From a virus: a DNA stretch of 64,000 bases. Made by a program: the position numbers and the translations under genes. Within the stretch, counting starts at the first letter, position 1. Every line of letters begins with the position of its first letter. The stretch lies in UHGV virus genome UHGV-1430915. One strand, written 5' to 3'. Below are positions 30,322-48,131 of this stretch, piece after piece. The notes under the pieces were generated by a model. It did not search any database. It was not told the origin of the DNA and was given only the letters and a program-made list of their open reading frames with translations.

Positions 30322-30552
30322 ATGAGTCATAACTCCAAGTGGAAGGATCTTGGTTTTGCAAGTCGGGCAGAATATGTTGGTTGGCTTTGGTTCAACGGTC
30401 TGACAAACGATATTAAAATGTATGATGATGTTTACTATGACGAGTATACAGGTAAAATTATAAATATCTCTGTAGAAGAGGATACCTTTGTCCAGCAAGA
30501 TACTGATACCTGCCTTGATAAATACGTTGATGAAGTGGAGGAAGCAAATTGA
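30322..30552 (+). CDS. hypothetical protein
   Basis: start at ATG 30322 after AGGTGG RBS; stop overlaps nrdA start. Confidence 0.5.
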   Translation: MSHNSKWKDLGFASRAEYVGWLWFNGLTNDIKMYDDVYYDEYTGKIINISVEEDTFVQQDTDTCLDKYVDEVEEAN

Positions 30553-32864
30553 TCACCAAGGTAATTAAAAGCAACGGATGTGAAGTGGCATTCGATCCAG
30601 AACGTTTAAATAAGGCGGCTATTTTCGGTGACGACGGTAACGGCAATTGGTCACATATTGCACTGGATGCATACAAGCGGCTGTATGATGGATGTACAAC
30701 CAAAGAAGTTAACCAAGCTATTATAGACTCTTGTGTTAGCCGTAAAGACGAAGCACATTCCCGTATGGCTGGTCGTGTTCTTATTGGTCAGATTTATAAA
30801 GAGGCTTTTGGAGGGTTTACAAAGATCCCTTCCTTACCATCATTTTACAATACCATGGTTGAGAAAGGGTATTGGGAGGATATGGGTTATAGCTTTACCG
30901 AGCTAAACACTTTAGACGCTGTTATTGACCACAGTAAAGATCTCGGTTATGGCTATGCAGTCCTTAAACAGTTTCGAGACAAATACGGGATCAAGGATAC
31001 TCTTAAAGACACCCTGTTCGAATCTCCACAGATGATGTTTATGGGGATAGCGATGGCTGTCATGAAAAATATGCCGAAAGAACGCCGTATTGACGATGTT
31101 GTAAAATTATACACTTATCTGTCAGACTTAAAGATCAATGCCCCGACACCGTACTTAAACGGGCTGCGCACAGGCAAGACAGGGTATGCATCTTGTTGTG
31201 TAATAAAAGCTGACGATACAGCAAAATCTATTGGTGTGGCACGTGAAGTTGCATACACAATGACGGTTAACCAAGCAGGTATTGGCTACTATTTATCATC
31301 AAGATCTGCAGGTGATGGTGTTCGTGGTAACACTATTAAACATATGGGCAAGATTCCATATTATCGAGGTATTGATGCTGGGGTTAAGGAGAACAGACAA
31401 CAATCACGTGGCGGTTCTGCAACAGTATCATTCCTTGCACTGGACCCGCAGATTGATGAGCTAATCCGTTTGAGAAACCCTATGACTGTTGCTTCAAAAA
31501 GAATCAACACCATGGACTACTCTATAGGTATTAATAGGTCGTTTATCAACCGTGTGGCTAAAAATTTAGATTGGATGCTTGTTTCTTATAAGCACGCGCC
31601 TCAACTGCATGAAGGTATCTTCACCATGTCTATGGAGGAGTTTGATGCCGAGGTTGATCGTATCGCTAAAGATGACAGTATTCCTAAAACATGGATCCGA
31701 GCTAGAGATCTTGCTGTTGAGCTGATCACGCAGCGCACCGAGGTTGGAAGGTTGTACGTATACTGGACAGATGAGATGAATAGACATACACCTTTTAAAG
31801 ATGTGATCTATTCAAGTAACCTGTGTGCAGAAATAGCCCTCCCGACAAAAGGCTATTCAGATATGCGTAATATCTTCAAGTACGATGTTGATGATGGCGA
31901 AGTTGCATTGTGCTTCCTGTCATCTCTTGTAGCTGGAAGGGTTACCCCAGAGGAGTATGAGGATGTTGCATACTACACGGTGCTTATGATTGACAATGTT
32001 ATGGAAATCATGACATATCCGTATGAAAATATGGAGAGCACTGTTAAAAAACGCAGATCCATCGGGGTTGGCCTTACCAATGTTGCACATTTTATTGCCA
32101 GCCACAAGGTTGCTTACGGGTCTCCTGAAAGTAAACAGCTTGTTCACGATCTTGCAGAGCTCCACAGCTACAGCTTGCATAAGGCAAGTTTACGATTGGC
32201 AAAAGAGCGGGGTGTCTGTGAGTGGATGCATAAAACAAAATACCCGGAGGGTTGGTTACCAATCGACACTTATAACAAAGAGGTCGATAGTGTGGTGAAA
32301 GATCCTTCTCTTAAGCAGGATTGGGAAGGGTTACGTAAAGAAATCATTGAAAATGGTGGGCTACGTAATAGCGTTCTTGAAGCATATATGCCTAATGAAA
32401 GCTCTTCGCTGGCAACAAACACCACTAACGGGGTTTATCCTGTCCGTGAGCACATTATCTTTAAAAAGTCGCCACAAGGGCAGGTGCTGTTTATCGTTCC
32501 TGAATATGATGAACTGAAAGAGTATTATACCTCTGCCTGGGACGTTGATACTAACGACATGATTGATATGTATGCTGTGATTCAAAAATTCACAGGACAG
32601 GCAATTAGTGCTGACCTATATATTGATTACACCAAGTTGAAAGATGGTAAAATTTCAATGAAGGAGCAGCTGGGGTATCTTATCCGTGCTACTAAATTCG
32701 GGATGAAGACATGGTATTACTTAAACTCTCGGGTTGGTGCTGGTGACTCTTTGACAGAGGAGCTTCACGCGAAGAAACAGGCTGAAGATGAAACCAGAAA
32801 GAACTATCCTTTGATTGCAGATAGTTCAGTTGAAGATCCATATTGCGAAAGTTGTGCACTGTAA
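30549..32864 (+). CDS. nrdA: ribonucleotide reductase class Ia alpha subunit
   Basis: 771 aa; N-terminal ATP-cone-like region; active-site SSNLCAEIALP; C-terminal CESCAL. Confidence 0.9.
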   Translation: MITKVIKSNGCEVAFDPERLNKAAIFGDDGNGNWSHIALDAYKRLYDGCTTKEVNQAIIDSCVSRKDEAHSRMAGRVLIGQIYKEAFGGFTKIPSLPSFYNTMVEKGYWEDMGYSFTELNTLDAVIDHSKDLGYGYAVLKQFRDKYGIKDTLKDTLFESPQMMFMGIAMAVMKNMPKERRIDDVVKLYTYLSDLKINAPTPYLNGLRTGKTGYASCCVIKADDTAKSIGVAREVAYTMTVNQAGIGYYLSSRSAGDGVRGNTIKHMGKIPYYRGIDAGVKENRQQSRGGSATVSFLALDPQIDELIRLRNPMTVASKRINTMDYSIGINRSFINRVAKNLDWMLVSYKHAPQLHEGIFTMSMEEFDAEVDRIAKDDSIPKTWIRARDLAVELITQRTEVGRLYVYWTDEMNRHTPFKDVIYSSNLCAEIALPTKGYSDMRNIFKYDVDDGEVALCFLSSLVAGRVTPEEYEDVAYYTVLMIDNVMEIMTYPYENMESTVKKRRSIGVGLTNVAHFIASHKVAYGSPESKQLVHDLAELHSYSLHKASLRLAKERGVCEWMHKTKYPEGWLPIDTYNKEVDSVVKDPSLKQDWEGLRKEIIENGGLRNSVLEAYMPNESSSLATNTTNGVYPVREHIIFKKSPQGQVLFIVPEYDELKEYYTSAWDVDTNDMIDMYAVIQKFTGQAISADLYIDYTKLKDGKISMKEQLGYLIRATKFGMKTWYYLNSRVGAGDSLTEELHAKKQAEDETRKNYPLIADSSVEDPYCESCAL

Positions 32865-44771: not shown

Positions 44772-45053
44772 ATGAAAAAGATTAACAGTAGTGAAGTAGA
44801 GTTTAAACTTGTCGGAAAAGGCACTTACTGGGAAGTTCGTCAAAAGGTATATTTGTTCGGTCTTATTCCCTACTGGTCTAAATTCTACTGGGGAGCTAAC
44901 GAGTTGGGAAGATACGCCACCAAATCAATGGCACTTATTGGTATAGCAGAGTACATTGCAGCCCGAGACAGGGTTGGAACCACTTATTACTACACTGCTG
45001 ACGATATTCGTAACAGTGTTTACGTCCCACAACCACCTGATGGAGACCGTTGA
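44772..45053 (+). CDS. hypothetical protein
   Basis: start at ATG 44772. Confidence 0.5.
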   Translation: MKKINSSEVEFKLVGKGTYWEVRQKVYLFGLIPYWSKFYWGANELGRYATKSMALIGIAEYIAARDRVGTTYYYTADDIRNSVYVPQPPDGDR

Positions 45054-45277
45054 TGAAAGTTAAAGTTTTAGATTCAAGCTTCTATATTGGTCAGGAGCCT
45101 TTAGTAGGAAAAGTGTTTACTGCTGTCCCTAACGAAGATTACCCTGACCTTTTAAAAATAAAAGGAGCAGATCTTATTGCCGCTGGTGCATCTCAGGAAT
45201 GCTTTGACAGTCAGTGGACCTATAACTTTGCCCTAGGTGAGGATGTAGAGGTAGTGGAGGACGATCATGAAGGTTAA
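45053..45277 (+). CDS. small acidic protein, family A
   Basis: MKVKVLDSSFY...KGADLIAAGASQE...VEVVEDDHEG; first gene of tandem triplet 1. Confidence 0.55.
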   Translation: MKVKVLDSSFYIGQEPLVGKVFTAVPNEDYPDLLKIKGADLIAAGASQECFDSQWTYNFALGEDVEVVEDDHEG

Positions 45278-45521
45278 AATTCTTGATTCTAACGTCTACT
45301 TGGGACAATCCTTCCTGAATGGAAAGGTCGTTCCTGCGGTATACTTTGAAGGGTTGCCGTGGGATGATCCTGTGCGGCAACATCACAGTTATGTAGGCCA
45401 CAACGTGGTGTTTATCTTGGGATCAGACCTGATCACCGCTGGTGCACCTGAATATTATTTCGGGGAAGAGTCCTACTATGCCTTTGGGGTAGGGTCAGAT
45501 GCAGATATTGTAGAGCTGTGA
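45267..45521 (+). CDS. small acidic protein, family A
   Basis: MKVKILDSNVY...GSDLITAGAPEY; second gene of triplet 1. Confidence 0.55.
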   Translation: MKVKILDSNVYLGQSFLNGKVVPAVYFEGLPWDDPVRQHHSYVGHNVVFILGSDLITAGAPEYYFGEESYYAFGVGSDADIVEL

Positions 45522-45533
45522 TGGGTAACCGTT

Positions 45534-45923
45534 GTGAAAAATAAACTGTTTAAAGTTACAATGAAAATTCGCGGAGCTTGGAGCGTAAAGCAAGGGCGCA
45601 TCCCAGAGTTTGAGAAAGACTTCTACGTAGTCTCCACCTCTGAAGAGGCTGCATGCTGGCAGGCTGGATATGCCTATGCAAGAACCTGGTACGAAGGATA
45701 CCAGACTGGAGGCTATGACGGAGAAATTGTCAGCAAGGGTGTGGAAGAAATTAATGTGTTGACAAGTGAAAAAGTTTTTGTTATAGTGCATCCTGATTCT
45801 AGAGTGAAGCATTACTGGAATGCCAGAACAAAAACCTGGACACCGTTTGCAGATTCTGCTACACCGCTTTTAAACCAGAAAGCTCTTGACTCTGCCCCAA
45901 GCTATGTGTTGAAGAAAAGATAA
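45534..45923 (+). CDS. hypothetical protein, family B
   Basis: HPDSRVKHYWNARTKTWTP paralogous to HPHSNIAYYWDVLNNEWTP in 47736..48131; GTG start, alternative ATG 45561. Confidence 0.5.
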   Translation: MKNKLFKVTMKIRGAWSVKQGRIPEFEKDFYVVSTSEEAACWQAGYAYARTWYEGYQTGGYDGEIVSKGVEEINVLTSEKVFVIVHPDSRVKHYWNARTKTWTPFADSATPLLNQKALDSAPSYVLKKR

Positions 45924-46241: not shown

Positions 46242-46270
46242 TTGACACAACACTTGATCTTTAGTATCAT
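46242..46270 (+). promoter_or_regulatory. sigma70-like promoter upstream of HPF homologue
   Basis: TTGACA-17 nt-TATCAT. Confidence 0.6.
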
Positions 46271-46317
46271 TATTTTCAAAGAGGGTTTGGTTCCCTCTTC
46301 TTTAAAAGGAGCACGTT

Positions 46318-46635
46318 ATGCAGATTGAAATCACTGGCAACGTAGATATCACTGAAGGTATGGTGTCTTTCATTTCCCACAAAATGTCCAAACTGGAGCG
46401 TTTGCACCCATCTGCCAACTATGCACGTGTGAGTGTAAAAGTTGAAAATGATCACCAGGAAGTTATGGCTTTTATTTTTGACAATTCTGGGAAAGAAGTT
46501 ATCGCCAAAGCTAAAGGTAGCGATGCTTACGAGGCAACTGACCGTATGGTGGATGTTGCAGCACGCCAGTTGGCTAAATGCGGTGGAAAGAAAGGTAAGG
46601 GAAAAGGTAAAGTAAAGATTGACTTTTTAGATTAA
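46318..46635 (+). CDS. hpf: ribosome hibernation promoting factor homologue (HPF/YfiA family)
   Basis: alignable with E. coli HPF: MQIEITGN.VDITE, KLE, VKVE, AKAKGSDAYEATD, ARQLAK; Lys/Gly-rich tail. Confidence 0.7.
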   Translation: MQIEITGNVDITEGMVSFISHKMSKLERLHPSANYARVSVKVENDHQEVMAFIFDNSGKEVIAKAKGSDAYEATDRMVDVAARQLAKCGGKKGKGKGKVKIDFLD

Positions 46636-46773
46636 GGTGCTACAATGGGCATGATTAAGAAATTAGTCCCAAATGTAGAGATTGCATGCTTTGAAATTAT
46701 GTTTGCAATCGCAGTTGTAGTTAATGTGTTAGGTTACGGCTATTAATTATCAAATAATTGAGGAGACCTCTAA

Positions 46774-47043
46774 ATGAAAATTAAATTATTCAAAACTGAG
46801 CTGGCAGACAAAAACTGCGGACTGGTTGAAGGCATGATCGTTGAAGCACAACCAGTTGACTACATGAAGGTGGTTCGTGATGCCCTGGGTGAAGGTTTTG
46901 ATCTGATGGAGCCAGCTCTGCGAGAAGATGTCATCGAGATGGCTAAAAAGCACACACCGGAAGGTTTGGTAGTGTTTGTTGCACCAGGTAACGGGGAAGA
47001 GTTGATTGTAACTCCGGATGTGTATGAGGTTGTAGAAGAGTAA
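46774..47043 (+). CDS. small acidic protein, family A (YEVVEE subgroup)
   Basis: MKIKLF...YEVVEE; similar to 48208..48468. Confidence 0.5.
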   Translation: MKIKLFKTELADKNCGLVEGMIVEAQPVDYMKVVRDALGEGFDLMEPALREDVIEMAKKHTPEGLVVFVAPGNGEELIVTPDVYEVVEE

Positions 47044-47135: not shown

Positions 47136-47399
47136 ATGATTGTTTATTTTAAAACTTCAGGTGGATACCCTGATTCTCAAAGCTTGATTGGAAAAACGTG
47201 CACAGCATACTCCCCTCTTGATGAGGAGGTAAGTGGTATCCTACGAGATATGTATCGGATTGATCCACAAGAAGCTTTTGATCAAAACCTTGTATTTGTC
47301 AAGGGATCAGACATAAAGTCTTTGGGGGCATTCCCTGAAGCAGATGATGATGCTGTTTATTCGTTTATGACACCTTTTGAAGCTATGGTTGTGGGGTAA
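47136..47399 (+). CDS. small acidic protein, family A
   Basis: KGSDIKSLGAFPE; first gene of tandem triplet 2. Confidence 0.55.
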   Translation: MIVYFKTSGGYPDSQSLIGKTCTAYSPLDEEVSGILRDMYRIDPQEAFDQNLVFVKGSDIKSLGAFPEADDDAVYSFMTPFEAMVVG

Positions 47400-47403
47400 G
47401 AAT

Positions 47404-47736
47404 ATGAAAGTACGCTTTATTGGTGAAACAATTCCTGTGCATCTCCGGTCTCCTGAAGACTCTGCAGATCTTGCATCTCAAAAGGCGAGAGGGTATGATA
47501 AGAAAGTGATCTCAAGCAATGTAGAGCTTGAGGCCACCAGTCTGCCTGACCCAGCTGCATTCTTCAATCATTATGGCTACTATTTTAGCAATCTGATGAA
47601 TATTGGTGAGCTTGTGTTTATTAGTGGTGGAGAGATAGTTAGCAAGCTTGGTGGAGATCCGGATATCTTTCATGAAACCTGTCCTTTTGCATTTGTGGTG
47701 GGTTCAGATGTGGAAGTTATTGAGGAGGTTCGGTAA
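47404..47736 (+). CDS. small acidic protein, family A-like
   Basis: MKVRFIG...VVGSDVEVIEEVR; second gene of triplet 2. Confidence 0.5.
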   Translation: MKVRFIGETIPVHLRSPEDSADLASQKARGYDKKVISSNVELEATSLPDPAAFFNHYGYYFSNLMNIGELVFISGGEIVSKLGGDPDIFHETCPFAFVVGSDVEVIEEVR

Positions 47737-48131
47737 TGGTAAGTCTATACCGTGTTGAGTATAGCTCGGATACTGTATACAACGTAAGAAGCAAAGATCG
47801 CAGTGATAGAGTGCAAGAAATGTATGTTCTTGCAGATAGTCCGTTATCTGCAGCGTTCAAGGCAGGAGCTCTTGCATCTCGTTGGAAATTTGAGGGTGGA
47901 TCTTTCTATGAAGAAACCCTCGAAGATTCTGTTGTTATTTCTTCTGTAGAGGTTTCAACCGACTACGAAGGGAAAAAGTTCGTAATGCGGCACCCACACA
48001 GCAACATTGCGTACTACTGGGATGTTCTGAACAATGAGTGGACCCCTGATCTTCAGAAGGCCACTGTTCTAACCCCATTCCTGGCAGATAAGTTCCCACC
48101 AGAAGGTAATTTATCTGCACTGTTTCAGTAA
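47736..48131 (+). CDS. hypothetical protein, family B
   Basis: paralog of 45534..45923; third gene of triplet 2. Confidence 0.55.
   Translation: MVSLYRVEYSSDTVYNVRSKDRSDRVQEMYVLADSPLSAAFKAGALASRWKFEGGSFYEETLEDSVVISSVEVSTDYEGKKFVMRHPHSNIAYYWDVLNNEWTPDLQKATVLTPFLADKFPPEGNLSALFQ

What the first reader, a model, noticed from the sequence alone, without database searches (positions are those of the whole stretch)
46318..46635. Phage-encoded ribosome hibernation promoting factor (HPF/YfiA) homologue with its own promoter
The 105-aa product aligns along its length with E. coli HPF (MQIEITGN.VDITE, KLE, VKVE, AKAKGSDAYEATD, ARQLAK) and carries an extra Lys/Gly-rich tail. It has a dedicated TTGACA-17-TATCAT promoter at 46242-46270 and sits inside an array of small acidic proteins. 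A phage HPF could dimerise or silence host ribosomes, or preserve them for phage use.
Basis: partly seen in the sequence, partly recalled or inferred. Interest (0 to 1): 0.7.

Follow-up and report, generated by a model that had tools for sequence, protein, structure and literature searches.

The report
Known phage copy of ribosome hibernation factor
This is the already published HPF (ribosome hibernation factor) gene of rV5-like coliphages, with its own early promoter. The homology is solid, but its role is still unproven because the only published test found no stable ribosome binding.

Summary
ORF 46318..46635 (+) encodes a 105-aa protein that passes the Pfam S30AE/HPF cut-off (48.2 vs 23.7 bits) and the TIGR00741 cut-off. 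Its model has the beta-alpha-beta-beta-beta-alpha HPF fold, and it is preceded by TTGACA-17-TATCAT at 46242-46270.

The window is a Vequintavirus (rV5/FV3-like) coliphage. The gene is rV5 ORF144, annotated with promoter P144 since 2006. Mizuno et al. 2019 (Nat Commun, PMC6375957) published it as a phage HPF. They expressed it in E. coli and found it in extracts but not in high-salt 70S/100S fractions, with no effect on 100S.

- The gene is in about 118 of 120 Vequintavirus records and in none of 62 sister-genus records.
- The core is under strong purifying selection (dN/dS about 0.05).
- It is only 36-43% identical to enterobacterial HPFs, a long separate branch.
- It keeps 3 of 4 conserved basic helix residues but lacks E. 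coli HPF's E-tRNA and G693 contact residues.
- It carries a disordered Lys/Gly tail whose last residues vary.

Best reading: an early-expressed, weakly binding, HPF-type factor that occupies the decoding site of idle host ribosomes. This is inferred, not shown.

Novelty: already known. Interest: low to moderate.

The parts
46242..46270 (+). Sigma-70-type promoter: -35 TTGACA (46242-46247), 17-nt spacer, -10 TATCAT (46265-46270). Equivalent to rV5 promoter P144. The inferred transcription start is near 46277.
   Evidence: Consensus scan gives 11 of 12 matches. In orthologues the hexamers are conserved while the spacer varies. The rV5 record annotates the site as a 'Sigma70-type promoter; P144'. 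The start site is an inference and has not been mapped.
46279..46299 (+). 5' UTR stem-loop (AAGAGGG / TTTGGTT / CCCTCTT) between the -10 box and the Shine-Dalgarno. It is either a 5'-terminal mRNA stabiliser or a weak terminator for the upstream gene.
   Evidence: RNAfold gives a 7-bp stem at -9.9 kcal/mol. The same stem is present in rV5, S127 BCL3 and APCEc02, and is weaker in Murica-type orthologues. Over 59 nt the fold is no better than shuffles (z = -0.54). The terminator scan does not call it. Its function is not established.
46306..46311 (+). Shine-Dalgarno AAGGAG, 6 nt upstream of the ATG.
   Evidence: Read directly from the sequence. Predicted to be unpaired in the UTR fold.
46318..46581 (+). 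HPF core domain (residues 1-88), with beta-alpha-beta-beta-beta-alpha topology.
   Evidence: Pfam PF02482 over residues 3-88. AF2 model with pLDDT 84-95 over most of residues 1-80 and elements E2-7, H13-29, E33-43, E46-55, E60-67, H70-88. The 36 best Foldseek PDB hits are all HPF/YfiA/pY; the top four have target-normalised TM-scores of 0.82-0.92. dN/dS is about 0.05 over these codons in 13 orthologues.
46582..46635 (+). Lys/Gly-rich C-terminal tail (residues 89-105, GGKKGKGKGKVKIDFLD) plus the stop codon.
   Evidence: pLDDT below 50 for residues 90-105, so predicted disordered. pI 10.0, with 6 K/R against 2 D/E. The basic K/G tract is kept in all orthologues, but the last 6-9 residues vary: KIDFLD, KIDFGE, KIDF*, a frameshifted GERQSKD* in APCEc02, and truncation to KAK* in Murica. 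The 64%-identical relative P0125 also has a basic tail, KYSKSKGIDKRTAKWDY.

Best explanation
Identity (about 0.97 confidence): this is the Vequintavirus (rV5-like) phage HPF gene, rV5 gp144. It is a captured and strongly diverged short-form HPF of gammaproteobacterial type, transcribed by unmodified host sigma-70 RNA polymerase from its own promoter, so presumably early.

Mechanism (inferred, about 0.45 confidence): like cellular HPF, the protein docks by its two basic helices into the A/P-site cleft of vacant 30S/70S ribosomes, between 16S helices h30 and h44. There it excludes mRNA and tRNA and shields the decoding region from ribonucleases. Idle ribosomes of a nutrient-limited or shut-off host would thus be kept intact and quickly reusable for phage protein synthesis.

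Binding is probably weaker and more salt-sensitive than that of host HPF. The phage protein lacks the Lys79 equivalent and the residues that E. coli HPF uses to hold E-site tRNA and stack on G693. It substitutes a longer, flexible polybasic tail that would lie in the mRNA path.

Shown: homology, fold, promoter motif, conservation, selection. Inferred: early timing, ribosome binding, the protective role, the position of the tail.
For: - Family membership at sequence level: PF02482 and TIGR00741 both above their cut-offs.
- HPF fold, with 4hei, 6h4n and 2rql as best structural matches at rmsd 1.0-1.6 A.
- Closer to HPF than to RaiA: 54.9 vs 16.1 bits; 37-43% identity to Enterobacterales HPFs against 23% to a from-memory E. 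coli YfiA sequence.
- Three of the four conserved basic helix residues are kept. Mutating all four together abolished ribosome binding of S. aureus HPF (K27/R30/K84/R87, PMC4889938). The phage equivalents are K25, R28 and R83 (my mapping from a from-memory S. aureus sequence, plus the alignment). They are also kept in the 64%-identical relative P0125.
- The D-x-Y-x-A-x-D...D...RQL-x-K helix-2 signature is retained.
- Strong purifying selection, dN/dS about 0.05 with dS up to 0.8.
- Present in about 118 of 120 Vequintavirus records as counted by an NrdA marker.
- Conserved sigma-70 promoter hexamers.
- E. coli hibernation factors protect 16S rRNA from YbeY/RNase R and speed regrowth (PMC7913689).
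- HPF occupies the A/P sites between h30 and h44 (Beckert et al. preprint).
- Phages can infect dormant hosts and wait for them to resuscitate (PMC10761892).
Against: - The only experiment was negative. rV5 HPF expressed in E. coli NM522 was found in the crude extract (including the C-terminal peptide VKIDFGE) but gave no peptides in high-salt-purified 70S/100S fractions, and 100S levels did not change (PMC6375957).
- The protein scores far below the enterobacterial HPF equivalog cut-off, 54.9 against 125 bits.
- It has lost the Lys79/K84(Sa) equivalent (V80; T in P0125). It also lacks R33, K93 and H95, the residues of E. coli HPF that contact E-site tRNA and G693.
- No RMF homologue was found in the window (from-memory RMF query), so any 100S formation would need host RMF.
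- A factor that blocks the decoding site would also block phage translation unless binding is easily reversed.
- The AF2 model was built from an alignment made mostly of HPFs, so the fold match is not independent of the sequence homology.
Confidence: 0.45

Rival explanations
1. Anti-hibernation competitor, acting like RaiA or as a dominant negative. The phage protein transiently occupies the HPF/RaiA site, and its longer basic tail reaches toward the RMF site in the mRNA exit channel. This would prevent or dissolve RMF/HPF-driven 100S dimers, so that ribosomes of stationary-phase hosts stay as readily reactivated 70S particles for phage mRNAs.
For: - Mizuno et al. proposed this.
- RaiA's 18-residue C-terminal extension is thought to protrude into the RMF site and to antagonise 100S formation (PMC7913689).
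- The phage protein has an extension of about 10 residues beyond HPF, strongly basic.
- A basic tail is kept even in the 64%-identical relative P0125.
- Loss of the E-tRNA/G693 contacts and of one helix-2 lysine fits weak, reversible binding.
Against: - No change in the small 100S fraction on expression, although those cells were not reported to be in stationary phase.
- The tail has no sequence similarity to RaiA's (RaiA model 16.1 bits).
- Its last residues vary, are frameshifted or are truncated among viable phages.
- A weak binder is a poor competitor against tightly bound host factors.
Confidence: 0.2
2. Host translation shut-off factor. Made early, it binds free 30S or post-termination 70S ribosomes and blocks initiation, contributing to host takeover. 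Phage messages escape by an unknown route.
For: An early-type sigma-70 promoter and a position inside a block of small, host-takeover-like early genes. HPF family proteins occlude mRNA and the A/P-site tRNAs. S. aureus HPF suppresses initiation on specific mRNAs.
Against: There is no known way for such a block to discriminate phage from host mRNA. Ribosome profiles and 70S stability were unaffected on expression, and no toxicity was reported. No ribosome association was detected.
Confidence: 0.1
3. Neofunctionalised protein that no longer acts on the ribosome. The HPF/dsRBD-like fold would be reused as an RNA-binding protein for phage transcripts, or as a small-molecule sponge in the manner of Acb4.
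For: - Negative ribosome co-purification.
- A long separate branch at only 36-43% identity, while Enterobacterales HPFs are at least 77% identical to E. coli HPF, followed by strong purifying selection. This pattern is typical of a functional shift.
- The anti-CBASS sponge Acb4 of phage SPO1 is structurally similar to V. cholerae HPF 4HEI (PMC11722364).
- It forms its own PHROG (12469, 'unknown function'), distinct from the general phage S30EA PHROG 8990.
Against: - The ribosome-facing signature (K22/K25/R28 on helix 1; D69, Y71, D75, D79, R83, Q84, L85 and K87 on helix 2) is retained.
- All 36 significant PDB fold matches are hibernation factors, and none is described as Acb4 or a sponge.
- No PADLOC hit.
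- No evidence of oligomerisation or a ligand pocket.
Confidence: 0.12
4. Neutral passenger gene ('moron') captured from a host, with no role in infection.
For: It is absent from sister genera of Vequintavirinae, so not part of the subfamily core. No phenotype is known.
Against: dN/dS is about 0.05 with saturating synonymous divergence. It is retained in essentially every Vequintavirus genome, together with a conserved promoter and Shine-Dalgarno.
Confidence: 0.03

Closest known systems
rV5 gp144 / ORF144 (ABI79209) and FV3 AEZ65272, the phage HPF of Mizuno et al. 2019
   Same: The same gene: 97-99% amino-acid identity, same length, same upstream promoter (P144), same flanking genes.
   Different: Only strain-level differences: D10 instead of E10, and a C-terminus of ...KIDFLD instead of ...KIDFGE.
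E. coli HPF (YhbH), short-form hibernation promoting factor (PDB 2RQL, 4V8H, 6H4N)
   Same: Same fold and domain length, 40-42% identity in the structural alignments, same N-terminal MQ(L/I)xITG motif and helix-2 D-x-Y...RQL-x-K motif. Basic residues K22, K25, R83 and K87 are retained.
   Different: - Scores 54.9 bits against the 125-bit equivalog cut-off.
- One-residue deletion after G7.
- K79 replaced by V, R33 replaced by S.
- The C-terminal KHKDKLKQH, with K93 and H95 that contact E-tRNA and G693, is replaced by a longer Lys/Gly tail.
- Encoded behind a sigma-70 promoter in a phage early region rather than in the host chromosome.
- No stable 70S/100S association detected.
E. coli RaiA (YfiA / protein Y)
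   Same: Same S30AE fold and same expected binding site. Like RaiA, the phage protein has a C-terminal extension beyond the HPF core.
   Different: RaiA model scores only 16.1 bits against a cut-off of 158. Identity is 23% (from-memory RaiA sequence). The tail is shorter (about 10 vs 18 extra residues), polybasic rather than mixed or acidic, and unrelated in sequence.
HPF/S30EA proteins of jumbo phages (Cronobacter phage GAP32 K4F6Q6, Escherichia phage PBECO4 L7TII8; PHROG 8990)
   Same: Phage-encoded S30AE-fold proteins. GAP32 is also listed by Mizuno et al..
   Different: Only 24-25% identity. They fall in a different PHROG and represent an independent acquisition. The GAP32 protein groups with Firmicutes sequences in Mizuno et al..
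Acb4 anti-CBASS sponge (phage SPO1)
   Same: A small phage protein with a dsRBD/HPF-like alpha-beta fold, reported to be structurally similar to V. cholerae HPF 4HEI.
   Different: No sequence relationship was shown. The phage protein here has clear sequence homology to HPF, and its fold search returns only hibernation factors. No oligomer or ligand evidence.

Membership tests
HPF/YfiA (Ribosomal_S30AE, PF02482 / TIGR00741) | Sequence match to the family profile above the curated cut-off | tested here: met
   PF02482 scores 48.2 bits against 23.7 and covers 83 of 88 profile positions. TIGR00741 scores 45.5 against 40.9.
HPF/YfiA (Ribosomal_S30AE, PF02482 / TIGR00741) | beta-alpha-beta-beta-beta-alpha fold of about 90 residues | tested here: met
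   AF2 model with mean pLDDT 81.7 and the expected order of elements. Foldseek finds 4hei, 6h4n and 2rql with target-normalised TM 0.82-0.92 and rmsd 1.0-1.6 A. Caveat: the input alignment consisted mostly of HPFs.
HPF/YfiA (Ribosomal_S30AE, PF02482 / TIGR00741) | Four conserved basic residues on helices 1 and 2 (S. aureus K27, R30, K84, R87) needed for ribosome binding and dimerisation | tested here: inconclusive
   Three of four are present (K25, R28, R83). The K84 equivalent is V80, and T in P0125. The mapping to S. aureus numbering rests on my own alignment from a remembered S. aureus sequence.
HPF/YfiA (Ribosomal_S30AE, PF02482 / TIGR00741) | Binds the 30S decoding region (A/P sites) of vacant ribosomes | not testable with these tools
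   In the published test no peptides were found in high-salt 70S/100S fractions, although the protein was present in the extract (PMC6375957). The authors list growth phase, salt wash or genuine loss of binding as possible reasons.
Gammaproteobacterial short HPF (NF007780 equivalog) | Score above the equivalog cut-off (125 bits) | tested here: not met
   54.9 bits. Identity to Enterobacterales HPFs is 36-43%, while those are at least 77% identical to E. coli HPF.
Gammaproteobacterial short HPF (NF007780 equivalog) | C-terminal and loop residues that hold E-site tRNA and stack on G693 (R33, K93, H95 in E. coli) | tested here: not met
   S32 aligns with R33. The C-terminus is an unrelated Lys/Gly tail.
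Gammaproteobacterial short HPF (NF007780 equivalog) | Promotes maturation of RMF-induced 90S particles to 100S dimers | not testable with these tools
   Published result: no discernible effect on 100S on expression. No RMF homologue in the window (from-memory RMF query).
RaiA / YfiA (NF007654) | Score above the equivalog cut-off (158 bits) | tested here: not met
   16.1 bits. phmmer with a from-memory E. coli YfiA sequence found no hit in the window ORFs at E of 10 or less.
RaiA / YfiA (NF007654) | C-terminal extension that reaches the RMF site and blocks 100S formation | tested here: inconclusive
   An extension exists (about 10 residues beyond HPF, basic and disordered) but it is unrelated in sequence. 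Its path on the ribosome cannot be computed here.
Acb4-type viral nucleotide sponge | Oligomer with ligand pockets for cyclic nucleotide signals, and sequence or fold membership in the Acb4 family | not tested
   The only link is a reported fold resemblance between Acb4 and HPF. None of the 50 PDB matches listed is described as Acb4 or a sponge. No Acb4 sequence was available for comparison.

The most novel reading that the evidence does not exclude
The Vequintavirus HPF is no longer a hibernation factor. It would be a derived mimic that binds only transiently to the decoding cleft and threads its polybasic tail into the mRNA exit channel. By doing so it would either keep stationary-phase host ribosomes out of the RMF/HPF 100S state (anti-hibernation) or shield the decoding centre from ribosome-directed defence nucleases. 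Either way it would be a phage counter-measure to host dormancy or abortive-infection responses.
Probability: 0.2. Interest if true: 0.6.

Novelty: already known. Interest (0 to 1): 0.25.

Why it matters
Phage-encoded translation factors are of interest because they suggest that viruses tune the host ribosome directly. This case is one of the best conserved, present in about 118 cultured coliphages, yet its role is unresolved after a single negative pull-down.

If the protein does bind ribosomes in starved, infected cells, it would link phage infection strategy to host dormancy. That is relevant to phage therapy, since rV5-like phages are widely used against E. coli O157 and other pathogenic strains.

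As a scan finding, however, it adds nothing new. The gene, its promoter and the hypotheses have been in the literature since 2006-2019.

Tried and rejected
- Word-indexed homologue search with the phage protein returned only close phage orthologues. The exhaustive phmmer over 1.84 billion representatives gave only 21 hits at E of 1e-3 or less. One was a 1160-aa repeat protein (P0126) that looks like a compositional artefact.
- Looking for the genomic context of the 64%-identical relative P0125 in IMG/VR and in JGI metagenomes found nothing. The cluster look-up showed it sits on contigs of up to 136,793 bp in E. coli assemblies, presumably a divergent Vequintavirus-like phage.
- A second HPF gene next door was rejected. 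The 'sigma 54 modulation factor' label on ORF 46774..47043 in many records is a propagated mislabel from APCEc02_082. Pfam finds nothing in it, and an HPF HMM hits only one ORF in the whole window.
- A phage RMF partner was rejected: no hit with a from-memory RMF query.
- The hairpin at 46279-46299 as a clear terminator or riboregulator was not supported. It is not called by the terminator scan, and the 59-nt fold is no better than shuffles.
- Acb4-like sponge: no support from the fold search or from PADLOC.
- Polikanov et al. 2012 could not be opened under the id I remembered, so the RaiA-tail statement is cited from PMC7913689 instead.
- DNA-level search for the region in sister genera found nothing outside Vequintavirus, so the insertion point of the gene could not be defined.

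Full report
**What is there.** The ORF is exactly as described: 46318..46635 on the + strand, ATG start, 105 aa, TAA stop. An AAGGAG Shine-Dalgarno lies at 46306-46311. A TTGACA-17-TATCAT promoter-like site lies at 46242-46270 and matches 11 of 12 consensus positions. Between the -10 box and the Shine-Dalgarno is a 7-bp stem-loop at 46279-46299, about -9.9 kcal/mol.

**Is the product an HPF homologue?** Yes.
- Pfam PF02482 (Ribosomal_S30AE) matches residues 3-88 at 48.2 bits against a gathering score of 23.7, E=1.8e-12.
- NCBIfam TIGR00741 (HPF/YfiA family) is passed at 45.5 against 40.9.
- The best PDB sequence matches are E. coli HPF (2rql, 4v8h, 6h4n) at E of 1e-11 to 6e-11 over residues 1-89.
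- An AlphaFold2 model (pLDDT 81.7) has the beta-alpha-beta-beta-beta-alpha order of elements, with a disordered tail from residue 90.
- All 36 significant Foldseek matches in the PDB are HPF, YfiA or pY proteins. V. cholerae and E. coli HPF come first, with target-normalised TM 0.82-0.92 and rmsd 1.0-1.6 A.
- The model used an alignment made mostly of HPFs, so it confirms the sequence homology rather than adding independent evidence.
- The protein is HPF-like rather than RaiA-like: 54.9 against 16.1 bits. It is nevertheless far below the 125-bit equivalog cut-off for enterobacterial HPF.

**What genome is this, and is the gene known?** The window is a Vequintavirus (rV5/FV3-like myovirus of E. 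coli).
- A 2-kb segment around the gene matches 119 phage records at 90-97% identity.
- The protein is 95-99% identical in 117 records.
- In the original rV5 record (DQ832317) the gene is ORF 144, 'sigma 54 modulation factor', and the same upstream site is annotated as 'Sigma70-type promoter; P144'.
- Kropinski et al. 2013 place it in the transcription unit of genes 82-163, and report 33 sigma-70-like promoters spread over the genome.
- Mizuno et al. 2019 (Nat Commun, PMC6375957) list rV5 ABI79209 and FV3 AEZ65272 as phage HPFs. They suggest the proteins might compete with cellular homologues and prevent ribosome dimers.
- They also tested the rV5 protein. Expressed from pBAD24 in E. coli NM522, it was detected by mass spectrometry in crude extract (peptides include the C-terminal VKIDFGE). 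No peptide was found in 70S/100S fractions purified under high salt, and 100S levels did not change.
- Mathieu et al. 2020 call the rV5 hpf gene 'already described'.

The finding is therefore correct but already known.

*Distribution.* With NrdA (window 30549-32864) as a marker, 120 records are at least 95% identical (Vequintavirus) and 62 are 80-90% identical (sister genera such as Salmonella phage SSE121). HPF is found by tblastn in 118 phage records, all from the first group, whether the query is the window protein or the divergent relative P0125. With E. coli HPF as query, 130 records in the whole collection have any HPF-like gene, about 118 of them Vequintavirus. Jumbo phages GAP32 and PBECO4 carry separate, 24-25%-identical HPF-fold proteins.

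*Selection.* In 13 orthologues, codons 1-88 give a median pairwise dN/dS of about 0.05, with dS up to 0.8. Forty-five codons vary, but only 10 amino-acid positions do. The pairs are not independent, but the direction is unambiguous.

*Divergence.* The phage protein is 36-43% identical to Enterobacterales HPFs, which are themselves at least 77% identical to E. coli HPF. A crude neighbour-joining tree, without bootstrap, places the window protein and P0125 (68% identical over the core) on their own long branch, not nested inside Enterobacterales. P0125 sits on contigs of up to 136,793 bp in E. coli assemblies. 'Recent transfer' is thus less apt than 'old capture or fast early divergence, then tight constraint'.

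*Residues.*
- The four conserved basic helix residues of S. aureus HPF (K27, R30, K84, R87) had to be mutated together to abolish ribosome binding; K84 and R87 were critical for dimerisation.
- They map to phage K25, R28, V80 and R83, so one is lost. It is T in P0125. This mapping uses my own alignment.
- E. coli HPF R33 and K93 contact the E-site tRNA, and H95 stacks on G693. The phage protein has S32 at the first position and an unrelated tail at the others.

*Tail.*
- Residues 89-105 (GGKKGKGKGKVKIDFLD) are basic (pI 10) and predicted disordered.
- The K/G tract is always present, but the end varies: KIDFGE, KIDF*, a frameshifted GERQSKD* in APCEc02, and a truncated KAK* in Murica. The extreme C-terminus is therefore not critical.
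- P0125 also has a basic tail.
- RaiA's 18-residue extension is thought to enter the RMF site and block 100S formation. The phage extension is about 10 residues and unrelated in sequence, so a RaiA-like effect is possible but untested.

*Promoter.* The number of promoter-like sites in the 7-kb region is not above shuffles (19 against 13.8 +/- 3.7). However, the -35 hexamer is invariant and the -10 is TATCAT or TATTAT across the printed orthologues, while the spacer varies. This supports a real promoter.

**How it most likely works.** I commit, at about 0.45, to a canonical-type mechanism.
- The protein is made early by host RNA polymerase.
- It docks through helices 1 and 2 into the A/P cleft of vacant ribosomes, excluding mRNA and tRNA and protecting 16S rRNA from nucleases, as E. 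coli hibernation factors do.
- Idle ribosomes in nutrient-limited or shut-off hosts would then survive until the phage needs them.
- Weak, salt-sensitive binding would reconcile this with the negative pull-down, and fits the lost contacts.

All of this is inference from homology, retained binding residues, selection and conservation. None of it has been shown.

**Rivals.**
- An anti-hibernation competitor acting like RaiA: 0.2.
- An early host-translation shut-off factor: 0.1.
- A neofunctionalised, non-ribosomal protein such as an RNA binder or an Acb4-like sponge: 0.12. Acb4 resembles HPF in fold, but the fold search gives only hibernation factors and PADLOC gives nothing.
- A neutral passenger gene: 0.03, contradicted.

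**Verdict.** The feature is already known. Interest is low to moderate (0.25): the open question of what this very well conserved phage HPF does is genuine, but it is not newly raised by this scan.

Noticed in passing
window 46774-47043 (+): This 89-aa acidic ORF (pI 4.4) is labelled 'sigma 54 modulation factor' in many GenBank Vequintavirus records. The label traces to APCEc02_082, next to the true HPF gene APCEc02_083, which is labelled 'hypothetical'. Pfam finds no domain in it and the HPF HMM does not hit it, so this is a propagated annotation error.
   Followed up: yes
window 46318-46635; records MT884010.2, OR062530.1, OR062525.1, MT884008.2: Several records label the HPF gene itself 'ATP-dependent protease La type I', which no search here supports.
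   Followed up: partly
window 46645-46746 (+) and 46619-46646: A conserved 33-aa hydrophobic ORF (rV5 ORF145, called 'putative membrane protein' in some records) follows hpf by 9 nt. A second promoter-like site, TTGACT-16-TACAAT with an extended -10 TG, overlaps the 3' end of hpf.
   Followed up: no
window 45050-45277, 45267-45521, 47377-47736; and 45534-45923, 47736-48131: Two small paralogue families sit among the neighbouring early genes (blastp E=1e-14 and 7e-8). 17 of 24 ORFs between 42.9 and 50.2 kb have pI below 6, and none of the nine neighbouring ORFs scanned has a Pfam domain.
   Followed up: partly
window 46279-46299 (+): A stem-loop lies immediately downstream of the -10 box, so it would sit at the very 5' end of the hpf mRNA. 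It is kept in rV5-type orthologues and weaker in Murica-type ones. It could be a 5' stabiliser or a leaky terminator for the upstream gene.
   Followed up: partly
phage collection records MG0656xx (for example MG065646.1, MG065658.1): Eighteen records named 'Campylobacter phage', with host Campylobacter jejuni, are 93-96% identical over this region to rV5-like coliphages. The host assignment looks doubtful.
   Followed up: no
protein P0125 (EFM7019398.1, EMB7054210.1): A 103-aa relative, 64% identical, is recorded as an E. coli protein on contigs of up to 136,793 bp. It is not in INPHARED, IMG/VR or the JGI metagenome scan. It is probably an unsampled, more divergent Vequintavirus-like phage riding in E. 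coli assemblies.
   Followed up: partly
window 46582-46632 (+): The tail is encoded by a purine-rich imperfect repeat (GGAAAGAAAGGTAAGGGAAAAGGTAAAGTAAAG). Orthologues show a frameshift (APCEc02, also P0003) and a truncation (Murica) here. This suggests slippage, or homopolymer sequencing errors.
   Followed up: partly
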